Part shown: piece after piece, positions 36,673-63,760 of the stretch | Position numbering within the stretch: position 1 is the first letter of the stretch | Layout of the letters: every line of letters starts with the position of its first letter | Sequence record: PQ805429.1 | Source of the DNA: Escherichia phage EK5 | Direction: 5' to 3' (one strand) | Length of the DNA: 64,000 bases | The notes under the pieces: model-generated | Database searches by the model: none | The model's input: the letters and a program-made list of their open reading frames with translations, nothing else | What the model was told of the DNA's origin: nothing | Program-made: the position numbers and the translations under genes

Positions 36673-36712
36673 TTAAATCTCCTTAAAGCTCCCCGAAGGG
36701 AGCATTATTGTT

Positions 36713-49732: not shown

Positions 49733-49760
49733 TTGACAGCCTTTTCCTTTATTATATAGT
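49733..49760 (+). promoter_or_regulatory. sigma70-like promoter
   Basis: TTGACA-16 nt-TATAGT, about 45 nt upstream of ATG 49805. Confidence 0.5.
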
Positions 49761-49804
49761 TGCGATTGTAGTTTGTAGTTTTCATCAACCATAAGGAATA
49801 TCAA

Positions 49805-50677
49805 ATGTCTAAAGTAGCAATTAACCACTTGAACAAAGCAAACGAAAGCCTTTCCTCTTTAGGCTTAACCGTTGGTAGTCCTGATGCGTGGATGGAAAAC
49901 GAAAGTGCACGTAAAGGATTCAAAAACTCAATCATGTTGGCTTGCTTGATCATCAATTCTACTGCGAACGCTTTACAGTGTGAAGATGAAAGCACGTTCA
50001 AAGAGAACGGTTTTACCGATATGCAGGACGCTATTAATTGCTACATTCAGGCTAATTTAGATAGCTGGAATCAGAAAGATTGGCCTGAGTCGTGCCGTGA
50101 TGTGAAAGCTGAATTATCCCGCTTGTCTGTCATGGTTGAAGCATGGAACAAGAAAAACAAGAAACAGCCAATCAAGCCTACTGTTGCAAGTAAGATTATG
50201 AAGTCTGTTAATCTGGCAAGTTATGCACTGGTTGCAGCTATTGGTGTTAGTGCACTGGTCACATCTCTTTCTGATAAGGCTATCGCTAGTCCTACTCCTG
50301 CAACTGATGCCGCTGATGTTTTCGCTAGTTCCATCAATAAGGGTTGGATGATTTGCAACGGTGCGGATAGTGATGGAAGTACTATTGTATTAAAAATGAA
50401 GTTTAGCAACGTAACTAATGATGGCGTTCTCTTTCAGTCTAAGACACTAGACAATCAGCCTAACAATGATCTAGTTCTCAAGCGCACCGATAGTGACTCG
50501 GATATGGTTACATTTGGCACTGTACAACGTTACGAAGACGTTAAAGCTGTAACCAATCTAGTGAGTTATGGTCCGGTTAATGAGTCGATGATCGCCACTA
50601 CCGTTTATAATAACGCTGATAACGCTGTTTATACCGTTCACGTTAATTTAGCCAACTGCATTAAGGCTAGTAAGTAA
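49805..50677 (+). CDS. hypothetical protein with internal TM segment
   Basis: 290 aa; hydrophobic LASYALVAAIGVSALVTSL. Confidence 0.5.
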   Translation: MSKVAINHLNKANESLSSLGLTVGSPDAWMENESARKGFKNSIMLACLIINSTANALQCEDESTFKENGFTDMQDAINCYIQANLDSWNQKDWPESCRDVKAELSRLSVMVEAWNKKNKKQPIKPTVASKIMKSVNLASYALVAAIGVSALVTSLSDKAIASPTPATDAADVFASSINKGWMICNGADSDGSTIVLKMKFSNVTNDGVLFQSKTLDNQPNNDLVLKRTDSDSDMVTFGTVQRYEDVKAVTNLVSYGPVNESMIATTVYNNADNAVYTVHVNLANCIKASK

Positions 50678-50701
50678 ATAACCTATTTTGGGAGTGTAAA
50701 A

Positions 50702-50953
50702 ATGGCTATCAAAGAAATTAAGTTATCTAATGGCTTTTCTTGTTTTGTTGGTGGAAGCTCTATCCTGTTTAATACACTTGATGGTCAGATAATCTTGCCT
50801 GTTATCACTTTTTGCAGGATGGAATATCAGCCTCTTAAAGATTGGCTAGCCTTTGCTGATTTCGAAATTACCCGCGATGATTTCAGATCAATCTATATTG
50901 ACGGTGATTTGTCGCTGGCTAACCTGCTTAATCATGGTCTGATTGGGGGATGA
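50702..50953 (+). CDS. hypothetical protein
   Basis: 83 aa, RBS GGGAG. Confidence 0.4.
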   Translation: MAIKEIKLSNGFSCFVGGSSILFNTLDGQIILPVITFCRMEYQPLKDWLAFADFEITRDDFRSIYIDGDLSLANLLNHGLIGG

Positions 50954-51159
50954 TACCAATGGGAAATGAAACTATCGCGCTAATTGATACGCATAATTAC
51001 GGTGGCGTTACGTTATCCTTTGATGAATCAGCCGACGTTGGCTATTTGTCTTTTCTTTCCAAAGGTGAGATACAAAATATACGCTTTCCTATTGTCTGTT
51101 TAGTGCAAGATTATATAACCGTTGGGAAGTATTTAGCCCAACGCGGGATTCTCCTGTAG
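50950..51159 (+). CDS. hypothetical protein
   Basis: 69 aa, ATGA overlap. Confidence 0.4.
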   Translation: MIPMGNETIALIDTHNYGGVTLSFDESADVGYLSFLSKGEIQNIRFPIVCLVQDYITVGKYLAQRGILL

Positions 51160-51315
51160 CTGGAAGAAGTGGAACAGATTAGCGTAGCATTTTTTGGTGA
51201 GGATAGCAACCAATGATTCATGATTATTTTTGGCGTTGCTTGTTCGTTGTTACAGTGGCGTTATTCGTCGCTGATATGCTTTATTCTTACATTCTCTAAC
51301 TAAAGGTTTATTATC

Positions 51316-51681
51316 ATGGGTGTTATCAAGTTTGTAGTGAAAGTATTTGTAGGCTTCTTTCTGGTTGTTCTCCTGTTAGGTGTCCTGCTGTCATCTATGG
51401 GTAGCGTTAAGGCTGCAACATTTTCCCCTGATACGGTTGACGGTTTACAGTGCACCTATTTGATAGAAAACTATGAAACTGGTAAAAAGTCACCTAAAGT
51501 TATTATTTTACATGTGAATGATTTCGAACATGTACAATCATACGATAAAACTATTCAACTGGTAAATGAAACTACCGGTAAACAAATTACGGTGGATCAC
51601 TTGATGCGCTCATCGTTGACGCTCTTTGATGAGTCCATGAATGAAATGGCATCCGGTAACGGTCAATGTGTAAATCCATAG
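51316..51681 (+). CDS. exported protein (signal peptide)
   Basis: 121 aa; N-terminal FVGFFLVVLLLGVLLSSMGSVKA. Confidence 0.45.
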   Translation: MGVIKFVVKVFVGFFLVVLLLGVLLSSMGSVKAATFSPDTVDGLQCTYLIENYETGKKSPKVIILHVNDFEHVQSYDKTIQLVNETTGKQITVDHLMRSSLTLFDESMNEMASGNGQCVNP

Positions 51682-51757
51682 GCTTAATCTTTCTCCTGTA
51701 TTGTGCCGTAGTCATGCCTATGGTCATAATTTATCTGATTCTCTAATCCTTCCTGTA

Positions 51758-51784
51758 AGCCTCCTAGTGAGGCTTTTCTCTTTT
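51758..51784 (+). terminator. rho-independent terminator
   Basis: AGCCTC-CTAGT-GAGGCT followed by TTTCTCTTTT. Confidence 0.65.
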
Positions 51785-52589
51785 ATGAGGTGATTGTATG
51801 CCTTACTCCCTTTTAGCTCGTTGTGATGCGTTTTAGGCCGCTAAATATCGCTTTACAAGCCGTTTTCTATGATGTATCGCGTGCGCCTGCTCTTTTACCT
51901 TCCTATAGTGAAAAAGTTTAAAATAATTTGCTTTACCCTATTGCAACCTCATCTGATTAGCGTATACTTCATTTCATCGGGTACGATGTAAAACATACAA
52001 GGCAAGAAATTGCCCCGCTCTTTAAAAATATGATTTGTCTTACGGGTGGCGGCGACGTCATTACTATAAGGCGCTCAGTTAATCGGTAGAATTGATTCCT
52101 GATTCATACGTGACGCAGGCGGACAATAAGCAATATCAATAAGCCTTATTTGTTCGATACTTTCAAAAGATTAATGCTTGAAAGCGCACTAGATTCCCTG
52201 AAAGACAAATCAGACTTATCATCTTGCCCTTTCGCATAGATTCACGCGAGATAAGGGAAAGGAATTAAAAGAAGATGATAAAAAGAGTTGCAAACGTGGT
52301 TAAAGTAGTCCATACTAACCACAAGTTAGCAAAACATCGCTAACTAGTTCCCAAATCAACGTATCGCGGGAAAGGTGGCACATAGTGCAGCGATTAGTTC
52401 AGGTGTAGGCGGCCTGTTAATGAATCAGTAAGCCTTCAATGTGACAGTGATTAGCAGACACTTTAAAAGGCTAAACGCTCTTTAACAATATGAGTCATAA
52501 GTTAAGCCTCACCGCTTAATCTTCAATCAAATAAAGCTGATTGATATATCCTCCCAATAGCGGGAACGACGAAAAAGATTAAAAAGCGG

Positions 52590-52618
52590 TTGACAGCGAA
52601 AACAACATGATTCATAAT
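52590..52618 (+). promoter_or_regulatory. near-consensus sigma70 promoter inside ORF-free region
   Basis: TTGACA-17 nt-CATAAT. Confidence 0.5.
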
Positions 52619-53541
52619 GAGCACTCACTAAGCAAATCATCGCTTCAGTGAAAAGCGTAACAACGGCTAACAGTTGCATAGTGTGAGAAAGCACACTGAT
52701 AGATTTACCGCTCTTTAATAATTTAAACATTCTCCTATATCGGTTGAATATGCTTGATGATAATAACCATCGGAAAGCATACCAGATAAAACGGCGTAAA
52801 ACTCCCTAAATTATCAGGGTAAACAGTTTTACATTCCCTTACTGGAAACGTCACCATTGATAAACGGATTCATTGAGTACACGCAAAGACTTGAGCTAAT
52901 CGCCCACGGTTAAGGGTAGCGGCGGTCATTGCTAACACGGTGCTACAGTGAAAGAAGTTAATCAGGGTAGGCAATCCCGACGAATTAACGCTCAATTGAG
53001 AGCGGCGGGGAGTGGTTAAAAAGTGGCAAATTGCTATTTAACAATAAGGTTTAGTGTGAACGTTTACAATGTGAACGGCTTGAGATTCATCTTATGATGA
53101 AAGTACATAGTCGGTTTATGTAGTAAACTTGCCGAAAGATATAAAACGTCGGAACATTAGACGGTCAATGACTCTTTCGCAATAGTATCCCGTAGTGGGC
53201 GATGACTAGCGATTGAGAGTTGATATAAAAGGATAGGCGAGAGCGAAAGCAAAGTAAACGATATTGCCGACGGTTACAATAACGTAACTAATTAGAGTCG
53301 GACGCACTGCCTTATTGTGATGATTGATCATCGCTATCAGGTCGGCTTCGTTTATAGCGACTAATTAAAGATACCAGATGAAACATCACGGATAAGGGGG
53401 CGGCAAGGTTAACTCCTGATAAGACCGCCCCGCTTACCTATAACTACTTAACAACGAGTGGTTATAGTTAAGTTAATAGTGACTTAAACAAGCTCATAGA
53501 GAGCGGGGCAATAGCGCCCTTACAATTGAAAGGTGAATATT

Positions 53542-54441
53542 ATGGCTAAAATCTTTACTCTGGTTAACGAATCCGGTTTTAATGCTCTGGCTAACAACAT
53601 TCGCAGTAATAACGCGGCGATCAAACAAGATGTTTCTAACTTCCTGTTAGGTCATTTGCAGCACTTTCGTAGCAACGGTAAGAAGTTAGATGTATTGCAG
53701 GCGGCGGTTGACTTCCTGTTAACCGAACGTTTCCGCGATATGGATGTTATTGCCACCGCGATTACTTTCTTAACTCCTATCAAGTTTAACACCGATGCGG
53801 CAAATGGTCGTAAAAAGTGGATTAATCTGGAAGGTGAGGCGAAAGCTAAAGAAGATGCGAAAGAAGCGCAAATTAAGGCCAAAATGGAACAAAACCGCGC
53901 TCGCTGGTCAAACGCTTTCGAAAACTTTGCATTAGGTCGTGCAATTGAAGTGGATAATCCTAACTTCTACAAAGGTTGCAATGACAACGTGGCGGCACAC
54001 CTGCAAATTCCGGCGAAAAACAAGGAAGATTTTAATCAGGATATTTACGCTTTGGTTGAACGCTTGAATGCAATCCGTATTGAAGCCAAATTACTGGCTG
54101 ATGAGCGCAACGGCGCAACCAGCGATAACACTATCGCCCTGAGTGAAGAAGTTGGGAAGGTTAAAAAGTCCTTTGATTCACTCATCAAGAAAATCACGGC
54201 CTCGACGGTAGCGATCTCGGATGATTATCTGATGAACGCATCAAGCAAGGAATTAGAATCACTCGATTCATACGCTGATGAAATGGAAAAGACTGTTGCA
54301 GCTATGCAGGAGAAGTTAGAAAGTCTGCGCGGTCGTATCTCTTCAACGGTTGCTACCCGTAGCGAACAAGCGGCGAAAGCAGAAGAGGAAGAAGTATTGC
54401 GTAAAGCGGCTGAAATTATGGCGGCACGTCAAGCGGCATAA
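53542..54441 (+). CDS. hypothetical protein (coiled-coil C-terminus)
   Basis: Start moved to ATG 53542 after AAAGGTG. Confidence 0.5.
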   Translation: MAKIFTLVNESGFNALANNIRSNNAAIKQDVSNFLLGHLQHFRSNGKKLDVLQAAVDFLLTERFRDMDVIATAITFLTPIKFNTDAANGRKKWINLEGEAKAKEDAKEAQIKAKMEQNRARWSNAFENFALGRAIEVDNPNFYKGCNDNVAAHLQIPAKNKEDFNQDIYALVERLNAIRIEAKLLADERNGATSDNTIALSEEVGKVKKSFDSLIKKITASTVAISDDYLMNASSKELESLDSYADEMEKTVAAMQEKLESLRGRISSTVATRSEQAAKAEEEEVLRKAAEIMAARQAA

Positions 54442-54464
54442 GTAAGACAATTTAAATAAACATA

Positions 54465-54499
54465 AGGCGCTATCTTAACGGGTAGCGCCTTTTCTTTTA
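54465..54499 (+). terminator. rho-independent terminator
   Basis: AGGCGCTA-loop-TAGCGCCT followed by TTTCTTTTAT. Confidence 0.65.
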
Positions 54500-54552
54500 T
54501 CAGTGCATTGATTCAGTGCATTAATCAAAGAATCTAATTAAAGGTGACGATC

Positions 54553-54771
54553 ATGTTAATTACACATACCACGATCTATAGGAATCTTGTCAACGGTCAA
54601 CATTACCGACTATCTAAAAAGTATGGCGTTGAATGTAAATGTGTTATTACCGGTGAATGGTATCCGTCGCCAATGAAGATTGAAACGTTGGAACGTGAAG
54701 CGATCAGCTATATTATCACGCAAGAAACAACGTTAGGTCGTATCTTAAGAAAGTTGGGATTGAGAAAATGA
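54553..54771 (+). CDS. hypothetical protein
   Basis: Start moved to ATG 54553. Confidence 0.4.
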   Translation: MLITHTTIYRNLVNGQHYRLSKKYGVECKCVITGEWYPSPMKIETLEREAISYIITQETTLGRILRKLGLRK

Positions 54772-54992
54772 TATTCAGTAGCAATTTTGGCAAGTGTCCT
54801 ATTTGTGAGAAACATCGCAGCACGGGAAACCATCGCAAATGTAGTAAGATATTACAGCGCCAACGTGATAACAAACATTGGGATACTGTACACACTAACC
54901 AGCGTAAAGAAGAAGTTAGGAAAATGGCTGTTAAAGCGTCATTTGCTCAATCCACCCGTATTGAACACATTCAAAGGTATCAAGCATTATGA
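54768..54992 (+). CDS. small basic Cys/His protein
   Basis: 74 aa; CPICEKHRSTGNHRKC. Confidence 0.4.
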   Translation: MIFSSNFGKCPICEKHRSTGNHRKCSKILQRQRDNKHWDTVHTNQRKEEVRKMAVKASFAQSTRIEHIQRYQAL

Positions 54993-55198
54993 TCACTAAC
55001 ATTTCAGAATTTAAGAAAGCACCTTCCCGCTTGTTAGGCCGTCGTGTTGTATATCTTTACAGCAATAAAGGTAAATGTACAACTGGACGAATTACAACGG
55101 TGAGTAGTGCTAACAAGAAACTGTTAAAGTTATGCGTAGCTATGGATGACGGTACAATCCTGCTACGCAGTTGGAAATCGTTTAGTTTACTAGATTAA
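54989..55198 (+). CDS. hypothetical protein
   Basis: 69 aa, ATGA overlap. Confidence 0.4.
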   Translation: MITNISEFKKAPSRLLGRRVVYLYSNKGKCTTGRITTVSSANKKLLKLCVAMDDGTILLRSWKSFSLLD

Positions 55199-55267
55199 GT
55201 TATTTGTTCAAGCCTATCGCCTTGATGGGCTTGCCCGATATAACTTATCACTGAAAGGAATAAGATT

Positions 55268-55711
55268 GTGGCTAAATCTAAAATCAGCATGAAGGGCGGG
55301 CGTTGTTTTGCTATCTCTGAACTAGAGAAAGAGAAACCGAAGGCAACTAATCACGTTAGTAAGCGTAGTTTAAAACGTCGTGCTGCAAAGGCTGAGGCTG
55401 AATCCCATGTTCCTTCCAGTGTGGCAAAGCGTGTAGGCCATCGTGTCCATCGGGCTGATGCGTTGTTGTTGGCTGATCATAAACGTTCTTTGTTAAAGAG
55501 CGGGGGAGCTAAAACAGAAGAGGAGAAGAAGTTAGAAATCTTCTGTAATGGTCGCACCCGTGGTAAACAGAAGTTTAAAGGTAGCACGAAAGACCCGCAG
55601 GCTTTCCCTAAGACAAGCCAGTGTGCACCTGATGTTTTCTACGCAGATAGTAAACACAAGTGGGGCGTTGAAAAATACATTGACCCCATCAAAGAGGCAA
55701 GGGTTAAGTAG
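55268..55711 (+). CDS. basic hypothetical protein
   Basis: 147 aa, GTG start after AAGGAA. Confidence 0.4.
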   Translation: MAKSKISMKGGRCFAISELEKEKPKATNHVSKRSLKRRAAKAEAESHVPSSVAKRVGHRVHRADALLLADHKRSLLKSGGAKTEEEKKLEIFCNGRTRGKQKFKGSTKDPQAFPKTSQCAPDVFYADSKHKWGVEKYIDPIKEARVK

Positions 55712-55791
55712 TAGGAATATAGCCCCCTCTTTTAGTACTATGACGCTCTTTCTGTAGCGTCGTGCCCTCTCCCCATTTGAAGCTTCCGCAT

Positions 55792-55814
55792 AGCCGCCTT
55801 TGAGCGGCTTTTTG
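55792..55814 (+). terminator. rho-independent terminator (first of tandem pair)
   Basis: AGCCGC-CTTTGA-GCGGCT followed by TTTTTG. Confidence 0.55.
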
Positions 55815-55875
55815 CGTTGCTGTAAGTGCATTTGCGAGTGTATTTATAGCAACGGTCATGTGTTGCTTTCAGGTT

Positions 55876-55901
55876 TGCCCCGGCTACGGCTGGGGCTTTT
55901 T
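55876..55901 (+). terminator. rho-independent terminator (second of tandem pair)
   Basis: GCCCCGGC-TACG-GCTGGGGC followed by TTTTTT. Confidence 0.65.
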
Positions 55902-55928
55902 TATGTCTACTGTATAGGAATCTATGAA

Positions 55929-56609
55929 ATGAAAGCAATTGTATTATCCTCAATCCTAGCTCTGTCCATAATGGCATCGCCTGTTTTTGCTAAAAGTGGA
56001 AACAATGGCAATGGCAATGGAGGTTGTGGTGTAGGTCAATCTACCAATGGTTGCGGTATCGGAGATTGGTTTAAAGGTGAAAAAGGTGATCAGGGAGAGA
56101 AAGGCGACACTGGCGCTAATGGCATTGATGGTAAAGATGGCATTGATGGAGAACAAGGCGCTCAAGGTGAAAAAGGTGATTCTGGTGCAGATGGTAAGAA
56201 AGGCGAAACTGGCCTAACTGGTGCAGCAGGTTTGAATGGCGTTGACGGATTAAATGGCAAAAACGGTAAAGATGCAGATATGTCTGCCGTTAATGCTAAC
56301 GCCAAATCCATCAAAGCTCTGGAACAATCCACCAATAAACGTTTTGCTTCTTTGCAAAAACAAGTAGACCGTAACCGTGATCATGCCTCTGCTGGTATTT
56401 CTGGCGTGGCTGCAATGGCTAACATCCCGCAAGTAAGTCAAGGATCTGCTTTCTCTGTTGGTGCTGGGGTAGGTGCTTACGATGGTGAATCTGCTCTTGC
56501 TATTGGTGTTAGTGCTCGTTTCAATGAAAACTTAGTAACTAAAGCATCAGTGGCAATGACTTCAGAGAGTGACGCTGTTCTGGGCGCTGGTGTAAGTTAC
56601 GAGTGGTAA
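55929..56609 (+). CDS. collagen-repeat protein with YadA-type C-terminal anchor (trimeric autotransporter-like)
   Basis: Start moved to ATG 55929; signal peptide MKAIVLSSILALSIMASPVFA; ~22 uninterrupted G-X-Y triplets; coiled-coil neck; C-terminus ...ALAIGVSARFNENLVTKASVAMTSESDAVLGAGVSYEW matches the YadA anchor ending. Confidence 0.7.
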   Translation: MKAIVLSSILALSIMASPVFAKSGNNGNGNGGCGVGQSTNGCGIGDWFKGEKGDQGEKGDTGANGIDGKDGIDGEQGAQGEKGDSGADGKKGETGLTGAAGLNGVDGLNGKNGKDADMSAVNANAKSIKALEQSTNKRFASLQKQVDRNRDHASAGISGVAAMANIPQVSQGSAFSVGAGVGAYDGESALAIGVSARFNENLVTKASVAMTSESDAVLGAGVSYEW

Positions 56610-56616
56610 GATAGTG

Positions 56617-56645
56617 CCTCTCCCGAAAGGGAGGGGTGTTTCTAT
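56617..56645 (+). terminator. rho-independent terminator
   Basis: CCTCTCCC-GAAA-GGGAGGGG followed by TGTTTCT. Confidence 0.6.
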
Positions 56646-56719
56646 AAGCATCTTTTCGAGGGTGTTTATTGAAACAACAAAACAGGAGGTAGCAAGTTCT
56701 GATAACAACGGCACAGCTA

Positions 56720-57109
56720 ATGTTGACATTGACTATTTATTATGAGGCAGGGAATCAGCCAACCGCATGTAAGGCTTTAGTTGCGGATACCGTGATAAAT
56801 AGAATGGCCCAACGAAAACTGACCGCTGAACAGGTGATAAGACAGAAGAACCAGTTTGAGTGGATTCCGGTACTATTAAAACAGGAGAAACCTTATAAAC
56901 GTTATGTAAAGCTGATTCGTGATAAAAATCCGATGACTAAGCAAGCCATTGGAGAAAGCGAGCGACTTGCTAAACGTGCCCTTAAGAAGAATTATGTTCC
57001 GCTGTACAGTGGGACTTACTTTCAGAGTAAGAGCGAAGGGGTGCCAAAATGGTATGCCAATCCTATGTATTGTGGTGATTTAGTGTTCGATAATAGCTCT
57101 AGGGAATAA
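56720..57109 (+). CDS. cell-wall hydrolase, SleB/CwlJ-like (Hydrolase_2)
   Basis: IYYEAGNQPTACKALVADTVINRMAQ resembles the Hydrolase_2 N-terminal motif GEA..E...G..AVA.VI.NR. Confidence 0.55.
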   Translation: MLTLTIYYEAGNQPTACKALVADTVINRMAQRKLTAEQVIRQKNQFEWIPVLLKQEKPYKRYVKLIRDKNPMTKQAIGESERLAKRALKKNYVPLYSGTYFQSKSEGVPKWYANPMYCGDLVFDNSSRE

Positions 57110-57308
57110 TCACTAGTGCCAGATTTGACAAACTAAATTCCTTTATAAACCAACCACTTAGTAAATTTATCGAAAAAGATGGTAGTATTCTGGGACTATG
57201 GGTAATGCTCTGTATATAGACCCTTTGAAAATTTCTTAGAAAATAAGTTTACTAAATATAACTTACTTAAATAATATTACTTTTAATCTCTGATAAAGGG
57301 TAAATAAT

Positions 57309-57605
57309 ATGACTTTAGAAGTATATAAATTCCTTTTTGTAAGCTGTTTAACTATCAGCGTTCTAGGATTTATTGTTCTCAGAAACAAAGCAGCAAGCTG
57401 GGAAAGAATGTATAAATCCCTAGTTCGAGTGGATGAGATGTATAACGAGAAGGTTAAAGTAACACTCAACGATCTTATTATGCAAGTTGAAGACAGAAAC
57501 AAACGTCTTCAGAACCTCAATCATGAAGTGTTGCGACTTGCTCGTGCTAATGAAGACTTACGAGTGGCTATTGCTAAGCAGCAGGAGATTAACAGTGAAA
57601 GTTAA
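57309..57605 (+). CDS. membrane-anchored coiled-coil protein (possible holin or spanin-like lysis accessory)
   Basis: 98 aa; TM helix FLFVSCLTISVLGFIVL then charged helical region; next to hydrolase gene. Confidence 0.35.
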   Translation: MTLEVYKFLFVSCLTISVLGFIVLRNKAASWERMYKSLVRVDEMYNEKVKVTLNDLIMQVEDRNKRLQNLNHEVLRLARANEDLRVAIAKQQEINSES

Positions 57606-57831
57606 TATTAAATCTGATTATACAATGCTTCGATTAAATAACATGAAGCCGGGCGTTCTGTTTGAGCGTAAAGAATCCCTTTACATTAGAACCGACACAT
57701 TGTACGCAGACAATTATGTCAACTGTGTTGATGTGGTAACTGGAAAGCTCATGCCTTTTAAACGGGATGAAGTCTGCCAAGTACGTAGTGATCTCCACAT
57801 AACTAACATAGGGGCTAAGGATGAAGATTAA
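57595..57831 (+). CDS. small protein, paralog family member
   Basis: GTG start after AGGAG; shares family pattern with 57821, 58079, 60721, 62146, 62394, 62642. Confidence 0.4.
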   Translation: MKVNIKSDYTMLRLNNMKPGVLFERKESLYIRTDTLYADNYVNCVDVVTGKLMPFKRDEVCQVRSDLHITNIGAKDED

Positions 57832-58078
57832 TCTTGAAGTAAATGAACCGTCTTTGTGTGTTGGTGATCTCAAACTTGGAGATGTATTCCAAATCAGGGA
57901 AACACGAGCAGATTTCTACATGGTTGTTCAGCTATTTACCTCACAGATTGAAGAGACCAAGCCTTCTGATGGTGGTTGTGTCGTCCTTAGTCTAACAAAT
58001 AAGCAAGTCCTTAAGCTCAGCTCGAAAAGCAAGGTTGTTCTTCTTCATGATGTTGTTATTACTAACAAGGGTAAGTGA
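57821..58078 (+). CDS. small protein, paralog family member
   Basis: 85 aa; MKI..., L..GDVF motif. Confidence 0.45.
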   Translation: MKINLEVNEPSLCVGDLKLGDVFQIRETRADFYMVVQLFTSQIEETKPSDGGCVVLSLTNKQVLKLSSKSKVVLLHDVVITNKGK

Positions 58079-58297
58079 ATGGAAATTAAAGTAGTTGATT
58101 ATCCTAAATATGCAAATGCAGAAGACGTTAAAAGTGGTGATGTTTTCTCTTACGATAGACGTTTCTGGCTGATGTTAGAAGATAAAACTCCTGATGGTTT
58201 GTGTAAGGCCGCCGATCTGAACAGTGGTTCTGTTGAAGTCTTCGGTTTATCAACCACTGTTATGCCCCGTCCTGATCTGTGTTTATCCCAAAAGTAA
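58079..58297 (+). CDS. small protein, paralog family member
   Basis: 72 aa; V.SGDVF motif, LNSGSVE. Confidence 0.45.
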   Translation: MEIKVVDYPKYANAEDVKSGDVFSYDRRFWLMLEDKTPDGLCKAADLNSGSVEVFGLSTTVMPRPDLCLSQK

Positions 58298-58305
58298 CAT
58301 CGACT

Positions 58306-58408
58306 TATAGCCCTTGTGTTTATCAGAGGGCTATGTGAGGGTGTTCCTCATTAACTTATTAATTCAGGCATATGCCACACCGCTAGGGAGAGCTTGCTCG
58401 AACATCCG
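58306..58408 (+). repeat. conserved intergenic element, copy A
   Basis: Hairpin TATAGCCCT...AGGGCTATGTGAG plus GCTAGGGAGAG...CTCGAACATCCG; second copy at 63584-63693. Confidence 0.5.
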
Positions 58409-58785
58409 GTGTTAGACTAAAACCTGTCAATTTTCGAAAGACTTTCTGATATGTAGGGGTACATATTGGTTTGGGATTCAGGAGACTTCCTAGGGGTAGG
58501 GAGTCTTCACCAGTTGGAATAAGAGATAGCTCTAGAACCTGAACTCTTAGGCAGAGAGGGTCGGCAATGAGTACGCGGTCAGAATTAGTCTACTGACTAG
58601 AGCTATCCCTTATATTAACTGGCAATAATGCCTCCACTAACAAAGAGAGATAGGTATGAAAGTATCAACCAAACGTATGAACCGCCCTGAACGTATGGAT
58701 GTAGTAGCTAATGGTGCTCTGAAACTGGAAGGCTTTTGGATTCATGCAATGTCAGCCATCCGTAACAAACAAGGCAATTGGACCT

Positions 58786-58995
58786 ATGCCGGTTAAGACA
58801 ACCCATGTGATAGGTATGCGAGAGATCATTCGCATTGCCTTGATGGAACACACAGAACGCAACATTCAACTAACGCAAATCTCTAAGTGTCTTAATTGCT
58901 CAAGAGATGTGGCTAAGGAGTTGATGTTTGCATTCCTGTATAATGCAGAAGACGAAATGCTACAGAATCATCTGATTCGTTGTGTTAGTCAATAA
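58786..58995 (+). CDS. hypothetical protein (possible HTH)
   Basis: Start moved to ATG 58786; terminator follows. Confidence 0.4.
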   Translation: MPVKTTHVIGMREIIRIALMEHTERNIQLTQISKCLNCSRDVAKELMFAFLYNAEDEMLQNHLIRCVSQ

Positions 58996-58999
58996 AGAG

Positions 59000-59029
59000 A
59001 GGCTGCCTTCGGGCGGCCTTTGTTGTTTT
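59000..59029 (+). terminator. rho-independent terminator
   Basis: AGGCTGCC-TTCG-GGCGGCCT followed by TTGTTGTTTT. Confidence 0.7.
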
Positions 59030-59073
59030 AATTAAGGGTCAGCTCTTACTTAAACTAACAAGAGGAAGCTAAA

Positions 59074-59250
59074 ATGTCTAAGCAAACAATCAAACATACG
59101 CAAGCTGGTTACTCTTATGTCAACTCCCCTTGCTGTGGTGCTCGTGTCAATCTGGTTAAGGAAGAGGTTCGTATCGTTCAGCGTGGCGCTACTGTTGTTC
59201 GCTCATGCTGTGTCTGTGGTAATGACATTTTTATCAAAGGTAAAGTATGA
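59074..59250 (+). CDS. small zinc-ribbon-like protein
   Basis: 58 aa; SPCCG...SCCVCG. Confidence 0.35.
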   Translation: MSKQTIKHTQAGYSYVNSPCCGARVNLVKEEVRIVQRGATVVRSCCVCGNDIFIKGKV

Positions 59251-59498
59251 AAAACTTTCAAGCTGCACCGATAACTAAAGTGATCGAAGTTGATGATGTG
59301 ATGATGACTGTTCCTCTGAACACTCGTTACATTGCAATTGACAGGATGGGTTATGTATGGGCTTGGAAGATTAAGCCTAGCTATAACGCACTGTTCGACG
59401 AGTTTGTTTGTACTGGTATTTACAGTCCTACATTCTTGGGTTTATTTGGAGAGTTCGAAGGTCAGTATAAAATCATCACTCTCCCTGCTTGTGCTTGA
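59247..59498 (+). CDS. hypothetical protein
   Basis: 83 aa, ATGA overlap. Confidence 0.4.
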   Translation: MKNFQAAPITKVIEVDDVMMTVPLNTRYIAIDRMGYVWAWKIKPSYNALFDEFVCTGIYSPTFLGLFGEFEGQYKIITLPACA

Positions 59499-59505
59499 GG
59501 TTAAT

Positions 59506-59667
59506 ATGTTCAAGTGGCTAAAGCGTGTCTTTCATTGTCATGATTGGAAGATTATTAATACTCGCCCTCTGGTCTATACAGATTCGGATGGGAACAATGA
59601 CAAGGGCACACGTTACGTTATTCAGTGTAAGGTGTGTGGTGATGTTAGTCATCGTGATGTAATCTAA
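59506..59667 (+). CDS. small Cys/His protein, paralog 1 of 3
   Basis: 53 aa; MFKWLKRVFHCHDW...CKVCG. Confidence 0.4.
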   Translation: MFKWLKRVFHCHDWKIINTRPLVYTDSDGNNDKGTRYVIQCKVCGDVSHRDVI

Positions 59668-59676
59668 GGAATCATT

Positions 59677-59841
59677 ATGATCAAATGGTTCAAACGCTTC
59701 TTTCATTTCCATGAGTGGGAAGATCTTCATACTTATGAACTGACGATCACAAATAAACTTACTGACAGAGAGCGACAAGGGTTGCGTATCTACTCTCGCT
59801 GTAAAGTGTGTGGTCTGCACAAGAAAACAGATCTGATCTAA
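59677..59841 (+). CDS. small Cys/His protein, paralog 2 of 3
   Basis: 54 aa; MIKWFKRFFHFHEW...CKVCG. Confidence 0.4.
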   Translation: MIKWFKRFFHFHEWEDLHTYELTITNKLTDRERQGLRIYSRCKVCGLHKKTDLI

Positions 59842-59849
59842 GGGGTGTT

Positions 59850-60059
59850 ATGTTCTTTCGTAAGAAAAAGCCCGAAGATTCTGGATGTAAACATGAGTGG
59901 GTGATCACTGAGAACCTACATATCACCCACGCTAAAGACACTCCGGTCGAGAGAAAAGAATCTCGTGTATCTCGTATCTGTAAACACTGTTTGAAAATAG
60001 AACAGCATAAAGTTCCCGGTCATATCGGTCACGATGTAGCCATTCGTATCTTTAGTTAA
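59850..60059 (+). CDS. small Cys/His protein, paralog 3 of 3
   Basis: Start moved to ATG 59850; CKHEW...CKHC. Confidence 0.4.
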   Translation: MFFRKKKPEDSGCKHEWVITENLHITHAKDTPVERKESRVSRICKHCLKIEQHKVPGHIGHDVAIRIFS

Positions 60060-60068
60060 ACAAATCTA

Positions 60069-60144
60069 GCACCCTTAGCTCAATGGACAGAGCAGCGACC
60101 TTCTAAGTCGTTGGTTACAGGTTCGAGTCCTGTAGGGTGCACCA
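60069..60144 (+). tRNA. tRNA-Arg (anticodon UCU)
   Basis: 7-bp acceptor stem GCACCCT/AGGGTGC, D-arm GCTC/GAGC, anticodon loop CTTCTAA, T-arm ACAGG-TTCGAGT-CCTGT, discriminator A and encoded CCA. Confidence 0.9.
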
Positions 60145-60163
60145 ATCAACGTAGGAGGTAGTT

Positions 60164-60463
60164 ATGAGTTGGGGTGGTGTAATATCCTTAATCTGTATCT
60201 TCCTTGTCTGTGTGGCCCTTACAGGCTGCGTACAGAGCCGTCCTGATGGATGGTGTGCAGTAGCAGTGGATGGTATTTGTGTATCTCGCTGGCATAAAGG
60301 TGAGAAGGTTCCTTCTGGTGAGATTGATATGCGCTGGAACGGAGCAACCTGCTCTAATGCTAACCCTTCTATCAACGAAGAGAAGTCTACGCCAGACAGT
60401 GTTGTGATTGATACAGCGTTGTGGTGTGGTGGCTCTACAGTTACCACTGGTAAGGAGTGGTAA
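60164..60463 (+). CDS. Cys-rich lipoprotein
   Basis: Signal peptide with lipobox LTGC; strong RBS AGGAGG; four additional Cys in mature part. Confidence 0.55.
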   Translation: MSWGGVISLICIFLVCVALTGCVQSRPDGWCAVAVDGICVSRWHKGEKVPSGEIDMRWNGATCSNANPSINEEKSTPDSVVIDTALWCGGSTVTTGKEW

Positions 60464-60464
60464 C

Positions 60465-60713
60465 ATGACAGCTCATTATTGGAATACAAAGAAGCTCCTT
60501 GAAGAGATGGCTGGAGTTAGTAGAGTACAGCTAATCTCTATGCTTCGAATGGATGCTCGCTCCTTACGCTTCCAAGTAAAGATTGGTAACTTCAGTGATG
60601 GCCTTTATTACACGCTGAAGGAAAGGATTAAGAAGACACACTTCATTATATATGGACTCAAACCGAGAACATATGTTAACTACATGTATTGGGATACATG
60701 CTACGATAATTGA
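60465..60713 (+). CDS. hypothetical protein
   Basis: Start moved to ATG 60465 after AAGGAG. Confidence 0.4.
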   Translation: MTAHYWNTKKLLEEMAGVSRVQLISMLRMDARSLRFQVKIGNFSDGLYYTLKERIKKTHFIIYGLKPRTYVNYMYWDTCYDN

Positions 60714-60720
60714 GGTTATT

Positions 60721-60942
60721 ATGAAACTAGACTCTAAGCAGTCACTTAAAACCGTTGAGCTGTCCAGCCTTCCAAACGGAAGTGTTTTTGGTCATGATAA
60801 ACACTTCTGGATTAAAACAGACATCATAAACGATGGATATATCACCTGTGTCAATCTTTGGAACGGCTCAGTGGATGGTTATCGCCCTAGCGCAAAGGTA
60901 GTCCCTCAACCTGATGCAAAGGCTGTAGGTTTAGTTTATTAG
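60721..60942 (+). CDS. small protein, paralog family member
   Basis: Start moved to ATG 60721; LPNGSVF, NLWNGSVD. Confidence 0.45.
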   Translation: MKLDSKQSLKTVELSSLPNGSVFGHDKHFWIKTDIINDGYITCVNLWNGSVDGYRPSAKVVPQPDAKAVGLVY

Positions 60943-60951
60943 GGAGTATGT

Positions 60952-61125
60952 ATGAGTTGTTTTGGTGGCGGTGAAGTAGATGACGATGATGACATGGAAT
61001 CCAACGGTACATGTCCTGATTGTGGATGTGAGACGTTTGATGGGGTGTCTGTTTATCCTGCCTGTAGTTACTCACCAGTGATCTGTAAAACATGTGGTGA
61101 TCAGCCGTGTGACCAATCTTGTTAA
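60952..61125 (+). CDS. small Cys-rich acidic protein
   Basis: 57 aa; CPDCGC...CKTCGDQPC. Confidence 0.35.
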   Translation: MSCFGGGEVDDDDDMESNGTCPDCGCETFDGVSVYPACSYSPVICKTCGDQPCDQSC

Positions 61126-61277
61126 GAGAATCTTATGACTGAAGAATTTTTAGAGTGGTTTGGGAACACCTTCAAAGATTATCTATTCTCTCCAGAAGAC
61201 TTTGAAGAACTGAAAACCTACACTTGGTTGGCTTGGAGAGATAGCCGACGAAAGTTGAACAAGTAAGAGATGATTAA

Positions 61278-61535
61278 ATGGGTTTACTTGATATTTTTAT
61301 CTCAGTTTACTTTATTGGAGTATTCCTTTCTGTCTTAGTGATGAAACTGCTATACAAGAAAGGTCTACTAAAAGGGGTCATTACAACAGGGTCTACCAGC
61401 TCTGAACCTGATGAGATGATGGTTGTTCTCTTAATTGTGTTGTGGCCTATCTCAATACTGTCAGGAGTTTTTTATCCAATAGGTTGGCTTCTGTTTAAAG
61501 CATATGATGCAGTTATGCATTTTATCTTTAAGTAA
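61278..61535 (+). CDS. small membrane protein (two TM helices)
   Basis: 85 aa; two hydrophobic segments. Confidence 0.45.
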   Translation: MGLLDIFISVYFIGVFLSVLVMKLLYKKGLLKGVITTGSTSSEPDEMMVVLLIVLWPISILSGVFYPIGWLLFKAYDAVMHFIFK

Positions 61536-61825
61536 TATCGTGAAGGATTCTTACGAGAGTCCTTTGAGATAGGACTTCAGATCTCCTATCAAACTAACAT
61601 TCATGTAACTAGCCCATAAGGGCGTTACCCTTTAATAACCCAGCCCACTAAGGGGGCGGGAGTTTAGTGCTGGATTAGCATAACGCTTATTCCTACAAAG
61701 GCAACCGATTGTTAGATCTTACATGCAATATTAACTAATAGGATAAGGGAGGATTCGTCCCCTCCCCCTATTTTATTGAATCTTTATCTAAGCAAGTCTT
61801 ATATAAACGTTTAATTGGAGGATGT

Positions 61826-62137
61826 ATGAAAGCACGAAGAACTATATGGACTCCGATGCAGATTGAAAATCTTCGGAGACTGATCAAAGAGTACTCGGTT
61901 CAAGAAGTTGCTCAGATTATGAATGTAACGGAGAATGCTGTTAACACAGCTTGCACTAAATTCGGAATATCAAGAGCTTCAATCCGAGTCAAGTGGTCTA
62001 AAGAAGAAGATCAGTTCCTTATCCGTAATGCCGGGTTTATGTCTATTCAGAGAATGGCTGACATGCTTGGTAGAAGTTATGCTGCTGTACAGAACAGGGC
62101 ATGTATGCACCTTAATATTAGCCTCAAACTTAAATAG
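61826..62137 (+). CDS. DNA-binding protein with two HTH-like repeats
   Basis: 103 aa; internal duplication W(T/S)..(Q/E)...L.......S..(E/R)(V/M)A..(M/L)...........(F/M)..IS. Confidence 0.45.
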   Translation: MKARRTIWTPMQIENLRRLIKEYSVQEVAQIMNVTENAVNTACTKFGISRASIRVKWSKEEDQFLIRNAGFMSIQRMADMLGRSYAAVQNRACMHLNISLKLK

Positions 62138-62145
62138 GAATCAAT

Positions 62146-62394
62146 ATGAAGATTACTCACAAGAAAGAAGAAGTGTCCACGGTTGATATCAACTCTCTTC
62201 CTAGTGGAGCAGTATTTAAATTCCCTGAGAGTTCTACTCTCTATGTCAAAGGGTCTGTGTCTGAAAGTCCTAATGTAACCGTTAACTCCGATCGAGCAAT
62301 CACTCTTCGTCTATCTGATGGTAACGTAACAGCCCCTTCTATCTGGTGCCGAGTTGTCCCTGTATCGGCAGAACTTTTGGTGGATAATACATAA
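62146..62394 (+). CDS. small protein, paralog family member
   Basis: 82 aa; LPSGAVF. Confidence 0.45.
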   Translation: MKITHKKEEVSTVDINSLPSGAVFKFPESSTLYVKGSVSESPNVTVNSDRAITLRLSDGNVTAPSIWCRVVPVSAELLVDNT

Positions 62395-62639
62395 TGAAAA
62401 TCATCCCAAAGAAAAAGGATAATACGGTTCGATTGGAAACAATCATTCCCGGAAACCCCTTCGTAGTTCAGCACGGAAGTGCCTCTCCTCAGTATTATAT
62501 GAGGGTTGAAAATGCTTCTGGTAACATCCGTATAGCCAGTGGCTGGGTTCCTGTAGTAAATCTATCCACAGGTGTACTGTCTGTTAAAGGTCTTGATGAT
62601 CAGGTAGAAATGATTCGTATGTCTGTGGTTCAGGAGTGA
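62394..62639 (+). CDS. small protein, paralog family member
   Basis: 81 aa; NLSTGVL. Confidence 0.45.
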   Translation: MKIIPKKKDNTVRLETIIPGNPFVVQHGSASPQYYMRVENASGNIRIASGWVPVVNLSTGVLSVKGLDDQVEMIRMSVVQE

Positions 62640-62641
62640 GA

Positions 62642-63569: not shown

Positions 63570-63583
63570 TTGTAGTAACGCCT

Positions 63584-63693: not shown

Positions 63694-63760
63694 TCGGATA
63701 GATATTTTAAGAGCAGGTTATCCACAGATATTGGGTAATATCTTTTTGTATTTAAAGCTT

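What the first reader, a model, noticed from the sequence alone, without database searches (positions are those of the whole stretch)
55727..56645. Phage-encoded collagen-repeat protein with a YadA-type outer-membrane anchor
The ORF from ATG 55929 has a Sec signal peptide, a Gly/Asn-rich region with two Cys, about 22 uninterrupted G-X-Y triplets, a short coiled coil, and a C-terminus that ends in the trimeric-autotransporter anchor pattern (...GAGVSYEW). That is the architecture of a bacterial surface adhesin, not a virion protein. It sits in the plus-strand block, insulated by two tandem terminators upstream and one downstream. Such a gene in a virulent phage could remodel the infected cell surface (superinfection exclusion, aggregation) or be a moron.
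Basis: partly seen in the sequence, partly recalled or inferred. Interest (0 to 1): 0.78.

Follow-up and report, generated by a model that had tools for sequence, protein, structure and literature searches.

The report
Phage gene for outer-membrane collagen fibre
A virulent E. coli phage of the phiEco32 group carries an optional early gene for a small bacterial-type surface fibre: an export signal, a collagen stalk of variable length and a YadA-type outer-membrane anchor; the gene is real but has been annotated since 2008, and what it does for the phage has never been tested.

Summary
ATG 55929..56609 encodes 226 aa: a signal peptide, a 28-aa Gly/Asn cap with 2 Cys, 22 uninterrupted G-X-Y triplets, a helix, and a full-length YadA_anchor domain (Pfam 2e-19). 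The modelled C-terminus matches the Hia, AtaA and YadA anchors.

The window is a Kuravirus (phiEco32-like phage). This gene is phi32_119, annotated "agglutinating adhesin" in 2008 and noted in the literature in 2013. It is therefore not new.

What I add:
- The true start is ATG 55929. Database CDSs start upstream and run through a terminator.
- The gene sits in a variable slot. Only 14 of 75 related phage records carry it. In SU10 and Bas91 window 55906..56678 is cleanly absent, and in SGF2 and 172-1 an HTH gene replaces it.
- The stalk length varies from 12 to 39 triplets through a perfect 18-nt tandem unit, and there are two head alleles.
- Similar signal-peptide plus YadA-anchor proteins lie in non-structural gene blocks of several unrelated virulent phage lineages.

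The gene is very probably a true trimeric autotransporter displayed on the infected cell, not a virion part. Its purpose (adhesion or aggregation versus exclusion of other phages) remains inference. Interest is moderate to low.

The parts
55739..55764 (+). First upstream hairpin, directly after the stop of the phi32_120 homologue; no T-run follows it.
   Evidence: -11.5 kcal/mol, z = -3.7.
55792..55814 (+). Terminator T1: AGCCGC-loop-GCGGCT followed by TTTTT. It is part of the conserved backbone.
   Evidence: -15.4 kcal/mol. It is present in all compared Kuravirus loci.
55877..55902 (+). Terminator T2: an 8-bp stem with 7 G-C pairs followed by T6. It is the top-listed terminator-like site in the scan of window 48300-64000 and ends 26 nt before the start codon.
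   Evidence: -18.6 kcal/mol. It is retained in SU10 and Bas91, which lack the gene. In head-allele 2 (L017) a different hairpin plus T-run occupies the same place.
55906..56678 (+). The insertion/deletion cassette: ribosome-binding site, ORF and downstream hairpin. This stretch is precisely absent in SU10 and Bas91.
   Evidence: homology to L003 and L004 stops at 55905 and resumes at 56679.
55916..55919 (+). Ribosome-binding site AGGA, 9 nt before the ATG.
   Evidence: Sequence.
55929..56609 (+). Coding sequence of the 226-aa trimeric-autotransporter-type protein, orthologue of phi32_119.
55929..55991 (+). Signal peptide, aa 1-21, with predicted cleavage VFA|K.
   Evidence: 109 of 120 homologues have the same kind of N-terminus.
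55992..56075 (+). Mature N-terminal cap, aa 22-49. It is Gly/Asn-rich and carries the Cys33/Cys42 pair.
   Evidence: 103 of 120 homologues have exactly two Cys, 6-9 residues apart, and both lie before the collagen.
56076..56273 (+). Collagen-like stalk: 22 G-X-Y triplets (aa 50-115), no proline, and 22 of 44 X/Y positions charged.
56119..56149 (+). An 18-nt unit (encoding GIDGKD) present in 1.7 copies here. It is the site of the length polymorphism.
   Evidence: Bas90 has 7.7 copies that are 99% identical to each other.
56274..56426 (+). Neck (GKDADMSxVNAN) and the helix/coiled-coil segment that leads into the barrel, aa 116-166.
   Evidence: helix 119-164, pLDDT 77-87. (nearly invariant K114-N124; invariant A153-V169).
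56427..56606 (+). YadA-type membrane anchor, aa 167-226: four beta-strands ending in ...GAGVSYEW.
   Evidence: 69.7 bits, 60/60 profile positions; strands 175-184, 187-197, 202-211, 216-224.
56616..56637 (+). Downstream hairpin with a GAAA loop and a weak U-rich tail. It is a possible terminator and lies inside the cassette.
   Evidence: -17.5 to -18.3 kcal/mol, z = -3.9.

Best explanation
This is a dispensable early gene of a virulent Kuravirus that encodes a minimal but complete trimeric autotransporter (type Vc secretion).

Proposed steps:
1. Host RNA polymerase reaches the gene only by reading through terminators T1 and T2, so it is probably made at a low level early in infection. This is inferred.
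2. Translation starts at ATG 55929. The 21-aa signal peptide sends the chain through Sec, and cleavage follows. This is inferred from the sequence.
3. Three C-terminal 60-aa segments form a 12-stranded barrel in the outer membrane via BAM. Family membership is shown by profile and fold; assembly itself is inferred.
4. The rest of the chain is threaded outward: a coiled coil, then a proline-free, charge-rich collagen triple helix of about 19 nm (22 triplets), then a 28-aa cap with a closely spaced Cys pair. This is inferred.

The infected cell therefore displays a short fibre whose length changes quickly by gain or loss of an 18-nt unit, and whose tip comes in at least two alleles.

Every characterised trimeric autotransporter, including the collagen-bearing VtaA proteins, makes cells stick to surfaces or to each other. 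The most likely effect is therefore adhesion or aggregation of infected cells, keeping the burst close to surfaces or to new hosts. My confidence in the structural identity is about 0.9. My confidence in the adhesive purpose is much lower, and the overall figure reflects that.
For: Family identity:
- Pfam YadA_anchor at 2.1e-19 over the full profile, and Collagen at 3.1e-09.
- PDB sequence matches to the YadA and Hia anchors.
- An AlphaFold model with a helix at 119-164 and four strands, pLDDT 75-87.
- The only Foldseek matches with E<=0.001 are Hia, AtaA and YadA anchors, with target-normalised TM-score (TMt) 0.67-0.85.

Export signals:
- Signal peptide and C-terminal Trp.
- Among 120 relatives, 109 have a signal-peptide-like N-terminus, 116 end in W, and 103 have exactly two Cys 6-9 residues apart ahead of the collagen.

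Not structural:
- The gene lies in the + strand block of small early genes, opposite the late structural block at 18748-48380.
- SU10 genes 69-125 are classed as early (PMC4281155).
- In N4-like FSL SP-058 and in two metagenomic phages the homologue likewise sits among RNA polymerase, DNA polymerase and nucleotide-metabolism genes.

Dispensable:
- 14 of 75 related records carry it.
- There is a clean deletion junction in SU10 and Bas91.
- SU10 forms virions without it.
- T4-like Serratia phages survive loss of a region that includes a YadA-anchor ORF (PMC5449768).

Variation typical of surface adhesins:
- Alleles of 12, 18, 22, 28, 34, 37 and 39 triplets, and two head alleles.

Adhesive role of collagen-bearing autotransporters:
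- VtaA2 (PMC6755704).
Against: - No experiment of any kind exists for this protein or for any phage homologue in the literature I could search.
- The mature tip is only 28 residues, which is small for a specific binding head.
- Self-aggregation normally needs the adhesin on both cells, so only infected cells would clump.
- No precedent is known to me for a virulent phage making its host sticky.
- The gene lies behind two terminators and I found no promoter, so the amount made may be very small.
- A proline-free triple helix is unproven here.
- Trimer formation could not be modelled.
Confidence: 0.45

Rival explanations
1. The protein is the same surface-displayed trimeric autotransporter, but its job is competition. 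The fibres would hinder adsorption or DNA entry of other phages (superinfection exclusion), or stop progeny from being wasted on infected cells and debris, as the T5 Llp lipoprotein does for FhuA.
For: - It is an early-block envelope protein in a virulent phage, and it is optional and variable like many exclusion genes.
- Kuraviruses use O-antigen as receptor (PMC11990801), and a stalk of 10-33 nm is in the size range of the O-antigen layer (my own knowledge).
- The alternative cargo at the same slot is a small HTH_37 regulator, which fits a slot that collects host-interaction accessory genes.
- Known early envelope proteins of virulent phages (T4 Imm and Sp, T5 Llp) act in exclusion (my own knowledge).
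Against: - Known exclusion proteins bind a specific receptor protein or act at the inner membrane. None is an autotransporter.
- A sparse fibre made by terminator read-through is unlikely to mask an abundant glycan receptor.
- Presence of the gene does not follow tail-fibre type. Phages that carry the gene share only 45-75% of the window's tail-fibre genes, whereas the closest tail-fibre matches (DE5, TH06, TH38) lack the gene.
Confidence: 0.22
2. The gene is neutral or decaying cargo. A bacterial-type adhesin gene was picked up at a recombination hot spot between terminators, is carried along with little or no benefit to the phage, and is being lost.
For: - It is absent from about four fifths of related records.
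- It is replaced or deleted cleanly.
- No promoter of its own was found.
- The HTH replacement keeps the last ~22 nt of the ORF, so the adhesin gene was there first and was overwritten.
Against: - The ORF is intact in every complete assembly examined, with signal peptide, Cys pair and C-terminal Trp preserved.
- Repeat changes always keep the reading frame, because they occur in 18-nt steps.
- The 3' half is 96-100% conserved while the 5' half has been exchanged for a second functional allele.
- The same architecture is kept in unrelated virulent phage lineages: 908 relatives and 78 phage records.
Confidence: 0.1
3. The protein is a virion component (a tail fibre or receptor-binding protein), as the database labels 'tail protein' and 'tail fibers protein' imply.
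For: - PHROG 26246 'tail protein' at 5.7e-102.
- Collagen repeats are common in phage tail fibres.
- The homologue in Yersinia phage fHe-Yen8-01 is labelled 'receptor binding protein; phage particle associated protein'.
- Cyanophage 'YadA domain' proteins were detected in virions (PMC9146016).
Against: - A cleavable signal peptide and a beta-barrel anchor that needs the outer membrane remove the protein from the cytoplasm, where virions assemble.
- It lies outside the structural module.
- SU10 and most relatives lack it yet make infectious virions.
- In the fHe-Yen8-01 record many small neighbouring non-structural genes carry the same 'particle associated' label, which suggests co-purifying material.
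- The PHROG label appears to be inherited from the collagen repeats.
Confidence: 0.04
4. The rod stays in the periplasm, hanging from the outer-membrane barrel. At about 25 nm it would span the periplasm and act in envelope remodelling or lysis, like a spanin or an Lpp-type strut, together with the adjacent early cell-wall hydrolase.
For: - The gene is next to a conserved SleB-like Hydrolase_2 gene.
- The homologue in phage SKML-39 hits the Lpp 'Alanine_zipper' profile.
- The rod length is close to the width of the periplasm (my own knowledge).
Against: - In all studied trimeric autotransporters the passenger is outside the cell.
- The phage has its own holin, endolysin and Rz-like spanin elsewhere.
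- The hydrolase is present in every relative, whereas this gene is optional.
Confidence: 0.03

Closest known systems
phi32_119 of Escherichia phage phiEco32 (ABY52920.1, 'agglutinating adhesin'; RefSeq 'tail protein')
   Same: It is the same gene at the same locus: 98.5% nucleotide identity over 1,021 nt, a 226-aa ORF with 22 triplets and the same head.
   Different: The database CDS is 798 nt long and starts upstream of terminator T2. The biologically sensible start is the ATG equivalent to window 55929. No function has been tested.
YadA (Yersinia), Hia (Haemophilus) and AtaA (Acinetobacter): trimeric autotransporter adhesins, type Vc secretion
   Same: - Signal peptide.
- A coiled coil entering a C-terminal anchor of 4 strands per chain.
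- A C-terminal aromatic residue.
- The anchor aligns to 2lme, 2gr7/2gr8/3emo and 9vnj.
   Different: - There is no YadA-type head or neck repeats.
- The passenger is almost entirely a collagen rod.
- The protein has only 226 aa.
- It is encoded by a virulent phage and presumably made only during the latent period.
VtaA proteins of Glaesserella (Haemophilus) parasuis
   Same: They are trimeric autotransporters whose passengers contain collagen triple-helix repeats that vary in number between paralogues. VtaA2 mediates adhesion, and its collagen part contributes to collagen binding (PMC6755704).
   Different: - VtaA2 has 1,225 aa, with LbR-YadA-like repeats and other adhesin motifs.
- They are chromosomal virulence genes of a bacterium.
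- I did not test direct sequence relatedness outside the anchor.
Collagen + YadA_anchor proteins of N4-like Salmonella phages (FSL SP-058 SP058_00135, vB_SalP_TR2); PHROGs 26246, 17426 and 8062
   Same: - The order of parts is the same: signal peptide, cap with two Cys, collagen, GKDADM neck, coiled coil, anchor.
- Identity to the window protein is 51-65% over about 79% of the query for the Salmonella-phage and Salmonella-assembly hits.
- They sit in a non-structural block next to dUTPase.
- They were discussed as a putative virulence gene in PMC3728262.
   Different: - The head is longer, at about 55 aa.
- In the relatives surveyed, mostly of this kind, the collagen has a median of 36 and up to 57 triplets.
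- The phage family is different (Schitoviridae).
Eib immunoglobulin-binding proteins of E. coli prophages; lambda Lom and Bor
   Same: They are phage-borne outer-membrane proteins that change the surface of the host cell, and Eib proteins are trimeric autotransporters (my own knowledge; EibG is mentioned in PMC4352079).
   Different: They are expressed from resident prophages for the benefit of the lysogen. Here the phage is strictly virulent. There was no nucleotide match in 5,426 complete E. coli genomes.

Membership tests
Trimeric autotransporter adhesin (type Vc secretion) | N-terminal Sec signal peptide | tested here: met
   MK start, then an 18-residue hydrophobic core (mean Kyte-Doolittle hydropathy 2.14), then VFA|K. 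109 of 120 homologues share the pattern. No dedicated signal-peptide predictor was available, so this rests on the sequence pattern.
Trimeric autotransporter adhesin (type Vc secretion) | C-terminal YadA-type anchor with four beta-strands per chain | tested here: met
   Pfam PF03895 at 69.7 bits (cutoff 22.7), covering 60/60 profile positions. The model has four strands at pLDDT 74-81. Foldseek matches to Hia, AtaA and YadA have E = 6e-8 to 7e-4.
Trimeric autotransporter adhesin (type Vc secretion) | Alpha-helical (coiled-coil) segment leading into the barrel | tested here: met
   The model has a helix at 119-164. The alignments to 3emo, 2gr7 and 9vnj include the helix, with 104-110 aligned columns.
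Trimeric autotransporter adhesin (type Vc secretion) | C-terminal aromatic residue (signal for the BAM outer-membrane insertion machinery) | tested here: met
   The protein ends in ...VSYEW. 116 of 120 relatives end in W.
Trimeric autotransporter adhesin (type Vc secretion) | Obligate homotrimer forming a 12-stranded barrel | not testable with these tools
   The structure tool predicts single chains only. The collagen and coiled-coil parts are both trimer-forming motifs, which is consistent with a trimer but does not prove it.
Trimeric autotransporter adhesin (type Vc secretion) | Outer-membrane location with the passenger exposed on the surface, and adhesive activity | not testable with these tools
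   This needs fractionation, protease shaving and adhesion or settling assays.
Collagen-like protein | Long uninterrupted (Gly-X-Y)n | tested here: met
   22 triplets at aa 50-115, with 0 of 10,000 shuffles reaching this length. Pfam Collagen scores 36.9 bits against a cutoff of 27.2.
Collagen-like protein | Stabilising imino acids (Pro/Hyp) in the X/Y positions | tested here: not met
   There is no proline in the repeat. Half of the X/Y positions are charged, and there are 5 KGE/KGD motifs. Charge-pair stabilisation is known for bacterial collagens (my own knowledge). Triple-helix formation itself was not tested.
Phage tail fibre / 'tail protein' (PHROG 26246 label) | Encoded in the structural module and assembled in the cytoplasm (no export signal) | tested here: not met
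   The gene lies in the early + strand block, and the structural genes are on the - strand at 18748-48380. It has a signal peptide and a membrane anchor.
Phage tail fibre / 'tail protein' (PHROG 26246 label) | Present in all members that build the same virion | tested here: not met
   It is absent from SU10, Bas91, ES17 and others. Only 14 of 75 records carry it.
Moron (self-contained accessory transcription unit in a phage genome) | Presence/absence polymorphism with clean junctions between conserved neighbours | tested here: met
   Window 55906-56678 is missing in L003 and L004, with a 5-6 nt junction. There is different cargo in L005-L007.
Moron (self-contained accessory transcription unit in a phage genome) | Own promoter upstream and terminator downstream | tested here: not met
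   No sigma-70-like site was found between 55712 and 55928. The one-mismatch gp36 motif at 55908 is at chance frequency. In allele 2 only ~27 nt separate the terminator from the ATG. A downstream hairpin is present, but its T tail is weak.

The most novel reading that the evidence does not exclude
Signal-peptide plus YadA-anchor fibres may be a general, so far unstudied tool of virulent phages in several unrelated lineages. These include Kuravirus, N4-like, T4-like, Felix-O1-size (about 90-95 kb) and jumbo phages. The fibres would be made early and displayed on the infected cell. In the collagen-stalk forms (Kuravirus, N4-like), stalk length would be retuned by repeat slippage to the thickness of the host's O-antigen or capsule layer. 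They would decide either where the burst happens (sticking infected cells to surfaces or neighbours) or which competing phages can still adsorb.
Probability: 0.2. Interest if true: 0.6.

Novelty: already known. Interest (0 to 1): 0.33.

Why it matters
The existence of this gene is not news. What remains open is why strictly virulent phages from many lineages keep a bacterial-style outer-membrane fibre that can only act during the few minutes between infection and lysis.

If it changes adhesion, aggregation or susceptibility to other phages, that would affect phage therapy cocktails, because Kuraviruses are used against pathogenic E. coli. It would also bear on safety screens, where the gene is flagged as a putative virulence factor.

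The natural allele series (absent, or 12 to 39 triplets, with two tips) is a ready-made experimental panel.

Practical points for annotation:
- The start codon in database records is wrong.
- The 'tail protein' label is misleading.
- The tandem repeat breaks assemblies.

Tried and rejected
- **Own promoter.** The sigma-70 scan found nothing between the upstream gene and the ATG. The phage sigma (gp36) motif tAATGTAtA has a one-mismatch copy at 55908, but 22 such copies occur in the window against 21.7 expected, and the mismatch falls in a conserved position. I rejected it.
- **Bacterial source of the gene.** There was no nucleotide match in 5,426 complete E. coli genomes. The best 120 protein relatives are mostly on phage records or phage-sized contigs, many others on contigs too short to classify.
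- **Link to receptor specificity.** Presence of the gene does not follow tail-fibre type.
- **Link to lysis.** The holin, endolysin and spanin are elsewhere.
- **Timing of expression and virion proteomics in phiEco32.** The two key papers (PMC2587145, PMC3275717) are not held in the library.
- **Functional studies of phage YadA-like proteins.** Literature searches found none. A search for the fHe-Yen8-01 paper also found nothing.
- **Modelling of the N-terminal part.** The monomer model of residues 1-115 is uninformative (pLDDT below 50).
- **phi32_118 (56614-56745).** I considered it as a partner gene and rejected it. It overlaps the hairpin, it is cut by the SU10 deletion, and its start is not conserved.
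Full report
**1. What is in the sequence**

The + strand ORF from ATG 55929 to the stop at 56609 encodes 226 aa, and an AGGA ribosome-binding site lies 9 nt upstream.
- The N-terminus MKAIVLSSILALSIMASPVFA|KSG has the shape of a Sec signal peptide.
- Residues 22-49 form a Gly/Asn-rich cap with Cys33 and Cys42.
- There are exactly 22 uninterrupted G-X-Y triplets (aa 50-115). None of 10,000 shuffles reached this run length.
- The C-terminus is ...GAGVSYEW.

Pfam gives YadA_anchor at 2.1e-19 (69.7 bits against a cutoff of 22.7, all 60 profile positions, aa 167-226) and Collagen at 3.1e-09. Sequence search of the PDB finds the YadA anchor (2lme, 5.9e-8) and Hia anchors in addition to collagens.

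An AlphaFold model built on 47 relatives is confident only for the C-terminal half, where it shows one long helix (119-164) and four beta-strands. Its only significant PDB matches are the membrane anchors of Hia, AtaA and YadA (E = 6e-8 to 7e-4, TMt 0.67-0.85).

Hairpins with T-runs lie at 55792-55809 and 55877-55896. A further hairpin lies at 55739-55764, and one with a GAAA loop follows the stop codon at 56616-56637.

**2. Where the window comes from, and prior knowledge**

The locus is 99.9% identical to Escherichia phage phiEc_1 and 98.5% identical to phiEco32 (genus Kuravirus, Gordonclarkvirinae), which are virulent podoviruses with prolate heads.

In phiEco32 the gene is phi32_119, deposited in 2008 as 'agglutinating adhesin'. 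RefSeq and Bas90 call it 'tail protein', and newer records call it 'YadA-like protein'. A 2013 paper explicitly lists the yadA homologue of phiEco32 together with those of N4-like Salmonella phages as putative virulence genes in lytic phages (PMC3728262). PHROGs has families for it (26246, 17426, 8062).

The finding is therefore already known at the level of annotation. I found no functional study. The two phiEco32 papers that might give expression timing and virion proteomics are not in the library.

**3. Corrections and additions**

*Start codon.*
- The database CDSs (798 nt in phiEco32, 918 nt in Bas90) start upstream and run through terminator T2.
- The sensible start is ATG 55929, which yields the signal peptide.

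*Variable slot.* The gene lies between two conserved genes, the phi32_120 homologue (55268-55711) and a SleB-like Hydrolase_2 gene (56720-57109).
- SU10 and Bas91 lack exactly window 55906-56678, that is, the ribosome-binding site, the ORF and the downstream hairpin, while keeping T1 and T2.
- In SGF2, pEC-N1203-2Af.1 and 172-1 the ORF interior is replaced by a 99-105 aa HTH_37 gene. That gene uses the same start and keeps the last ~22 nt of the adhesin ORF.
- Only 14 of 75 records that share the flanks carry the 3' half of the gene.

*Length polymorphism.*
- An 18-nt unit encoding GIDGKD is present in 1.7 copies here and in 7.7 copies, 99% identical to one another, in Bas90.
- Intact alleles have 12, 18, 22, 28, 34, 37 and 39 triplets.
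- Three assemblies break or contain Ns inside the array.

*Two tip alleles.*
- The same slot carries one of two tips: KSGNNGNGNGGCGVGQSTNGCGIGDWF, or HSDKCS..K.CEVQQ.
- The exchange covers T2 through most of the collagen, while the 3' half stays 96% identical.
- The second allele has a different hairpin plus T-run just before its ribosome-binding site.

**4. The wider family**

A protein search gave 908 relatives. The best 120 nearly all combine Collagen and YadA_anchor, and many lie on contigs of phage size. Within those 120:
- 109 have a signal-peptide-like N-terminus.
- 116 end in Trp.
- 103 have exactly two Cys, 6-9 residues apart, both before the collagen.
- The number of triplets has a median of 36 and reaches 57.

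A closely spaced Cys pair is what autotransporter passengers tolerate during export (my own knowledge).

A tblastn search with the C-terminal 114 aa finds 78 phage records. They include Kuravirus, N4-like phages of Salmonella, Erwinia and Pantoea, T4-like phages, an Ackermannviridae phage (SKML-39), 90-95 kb phages (fHe-Yen8-01, ECML-606-1), and jumbo phages.

Where I looked, the gene sits among early or replication genes rather than in the structural module:
- FSL SP-058, between RNA polymerase and dUTPase.
- A 72-kb phage contig, among Ter-type genes.
- A 45-kb phage contig, on the DNA polymerase strand opposite the tail genes.

T4-like Serratia phages stay viable after deleting a region that includes a YadA-anchor ORF (PMC5449768). 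There is no nucleotide match in 5,426 complete E. coli genomes.

**5. How it most likely works**

The following are shown:
- The family identity of the anchor.
- The collagen repeat.
- The export-type N-terminus.
- The position in the early block.
- Dispensability.
- The allele series.

The following are inferred:
- Transcription by read-through of T1 and T2, because no promoter was found and in allele 2 there is no room for one.
- Sec export and signal-peptide cleavage.
- Trimerisation and BAM-dependent insertion.
- Extrusion of a rod of about 19 nm (66 residues at 0.286 nm each) plus a coiled coil.

Purpose is the weakest step. By homology with every studied trimeric autotransporter, including the collagen-bearing VtaA2 (PMC6755704), I take adhesion or aggregation of infected cells as most likely. 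The variation in tip and in stalk length fits a surface-interaction molecule.

The main rival is exclusion of other phages or protection of progeny, which is the usual role of early envelope proteins in virulent phages. I found no link between presence of the gene and tail-fibre type, which argues against a role tied to one receptor.

A virion role is very unlikely, for three reasons:
- The protein has a signal peptide and a membrane anchor.
- It lies outside the structural genes.
- It is absent from SU10, whose virion structure has been solved (PMC11990801).

The only contrary hint is a 'particle associated' label in Yersinia phage fHe-Yen8-01. That label is shared by many small neighbouring genes.

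A lysis role is unlikely because the phage has a holin, an endolysin and an Rz-like spanin elsewhere.

**6. Verdict**

However, the gene has been annotated since 2008, and comparable genes are labelled in dozens of phage genomes.

The residual interest lies in the unanswered question of what such fibres do for virulent phages, and in the natural allele series that would make the question testable. Interest is 0.33 and novelty is 'already known'.

Noticed in passing
window 56720-57109 (+): A 129-aa SleB-like cell-wall hydrolase (Pfam Hydrolase_2, 1.7e-7) with no signal peptide. It lies in the early block directly after the adhesin cassette and is conserved in every Kuravirus locus compared. It is separate from the late holin/endolysin pair and the Rz-like spanin annotated in Bas90. 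Its role early in infection is unexplained.
   Followed up: partly
L005 1727-2026, L006, L007 1814-2131 (same slot as window 55929-56609): In SGF2, pEC-N1203-2Af.1 and 172-1 the adhesin ORF is replaced by an HTH_37 (XRE/HigA-like) gene of 99-105 aa. It uses the same ribosome-binding site and ATG and keeps the last ~22 nt of the adhesin ORF; the 172-1 protein even ends in ...GDGVSYK. This looks like cargo exchange by recombination inside the gene.
   Followed up: partly
window 56614-56745 (+): The ORF annotated as phi32_118 (43 aa, GTG start) overlaps the downstream hairpin, is truncated by the SU10/Bas91 deletion, and has a different start in SGF2. It is probably not a gene.
   Followed up: partly
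window 55800-55928; L001 4114-4911; L002 2574-3491: Public CDS annotations of this gene start upstream (phiEco32 798 nt, Bas90 918 nt) and read through a strong terminator. In Bas91, which lacks the gene, the leftover 135-nt leader ORF is annotated as 'tail protein'.
   Followed up: yes
L021 (MN03), L023 (PGN6866), L024 (ShigP1): Assemblies end inside the 18-nt collagen tandem array or contain Ns there, so the gene is reported truncated (125 aa 'adhesin' in MN03). This is an assembly artefact rather than biology.
   Followed up: yes
L008 6244-6693; L013 8849-15161: In N4-like Salmonella phage FSL SP-058 and in a 72-kb metagenomic phage contig, the collagen/YadA-anchor gene lies within a few kb of tellurite-resistance-type genes (TerB; TerC, TelA, vWA-TerF-like). 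This may be a recurring accessory neighbourhood.
   Followed up: no
one search hits P0019, P0021, P0030, P0033, P0053, P0070: Whole phage-sized contigs (most 70-72 kb, one 28 kb) carrying the homologue are deposited as Salmonella enterica isolate assemblies. This suggests that these virulent phages travel with bacterial cultures, either in a carrier state or as contamination.
   Followed up: no
window 34474-39493 (-): The two long tail-fibre genes are mosaic. Only 45-52% is shared with phiEc_1, phiEco32 and Bas90, which are nearly identical to the window at the adhesin locus, while 84-87% is shared with DE5, TH06 and TH38, which lack the adhesin gene. The window phage is therefore a recombinant and is not identical to any listed record.
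   Followed up: partly
L007 1636-1758: Phage 172-1 has an extra 138 nt between terminators T1 and T2, with a 40-aa strongly hydrophobic ORF (MESAISYLGEGGFFFLCGMLFGVIITLLILMIGFMEAVSR). The spacer between the terminators is also a variable spot.
   Followed up: no
L009 2332-3306: The Yersinia phage fHe-Yen8-01 homologue has a signal peptide, a coiled-coil passenger without collagen, and a YadA anchor. It is annotated 'receptor binding protein; phage particle associated protein'. I could not find the underlying paper.
   Followed up: partly
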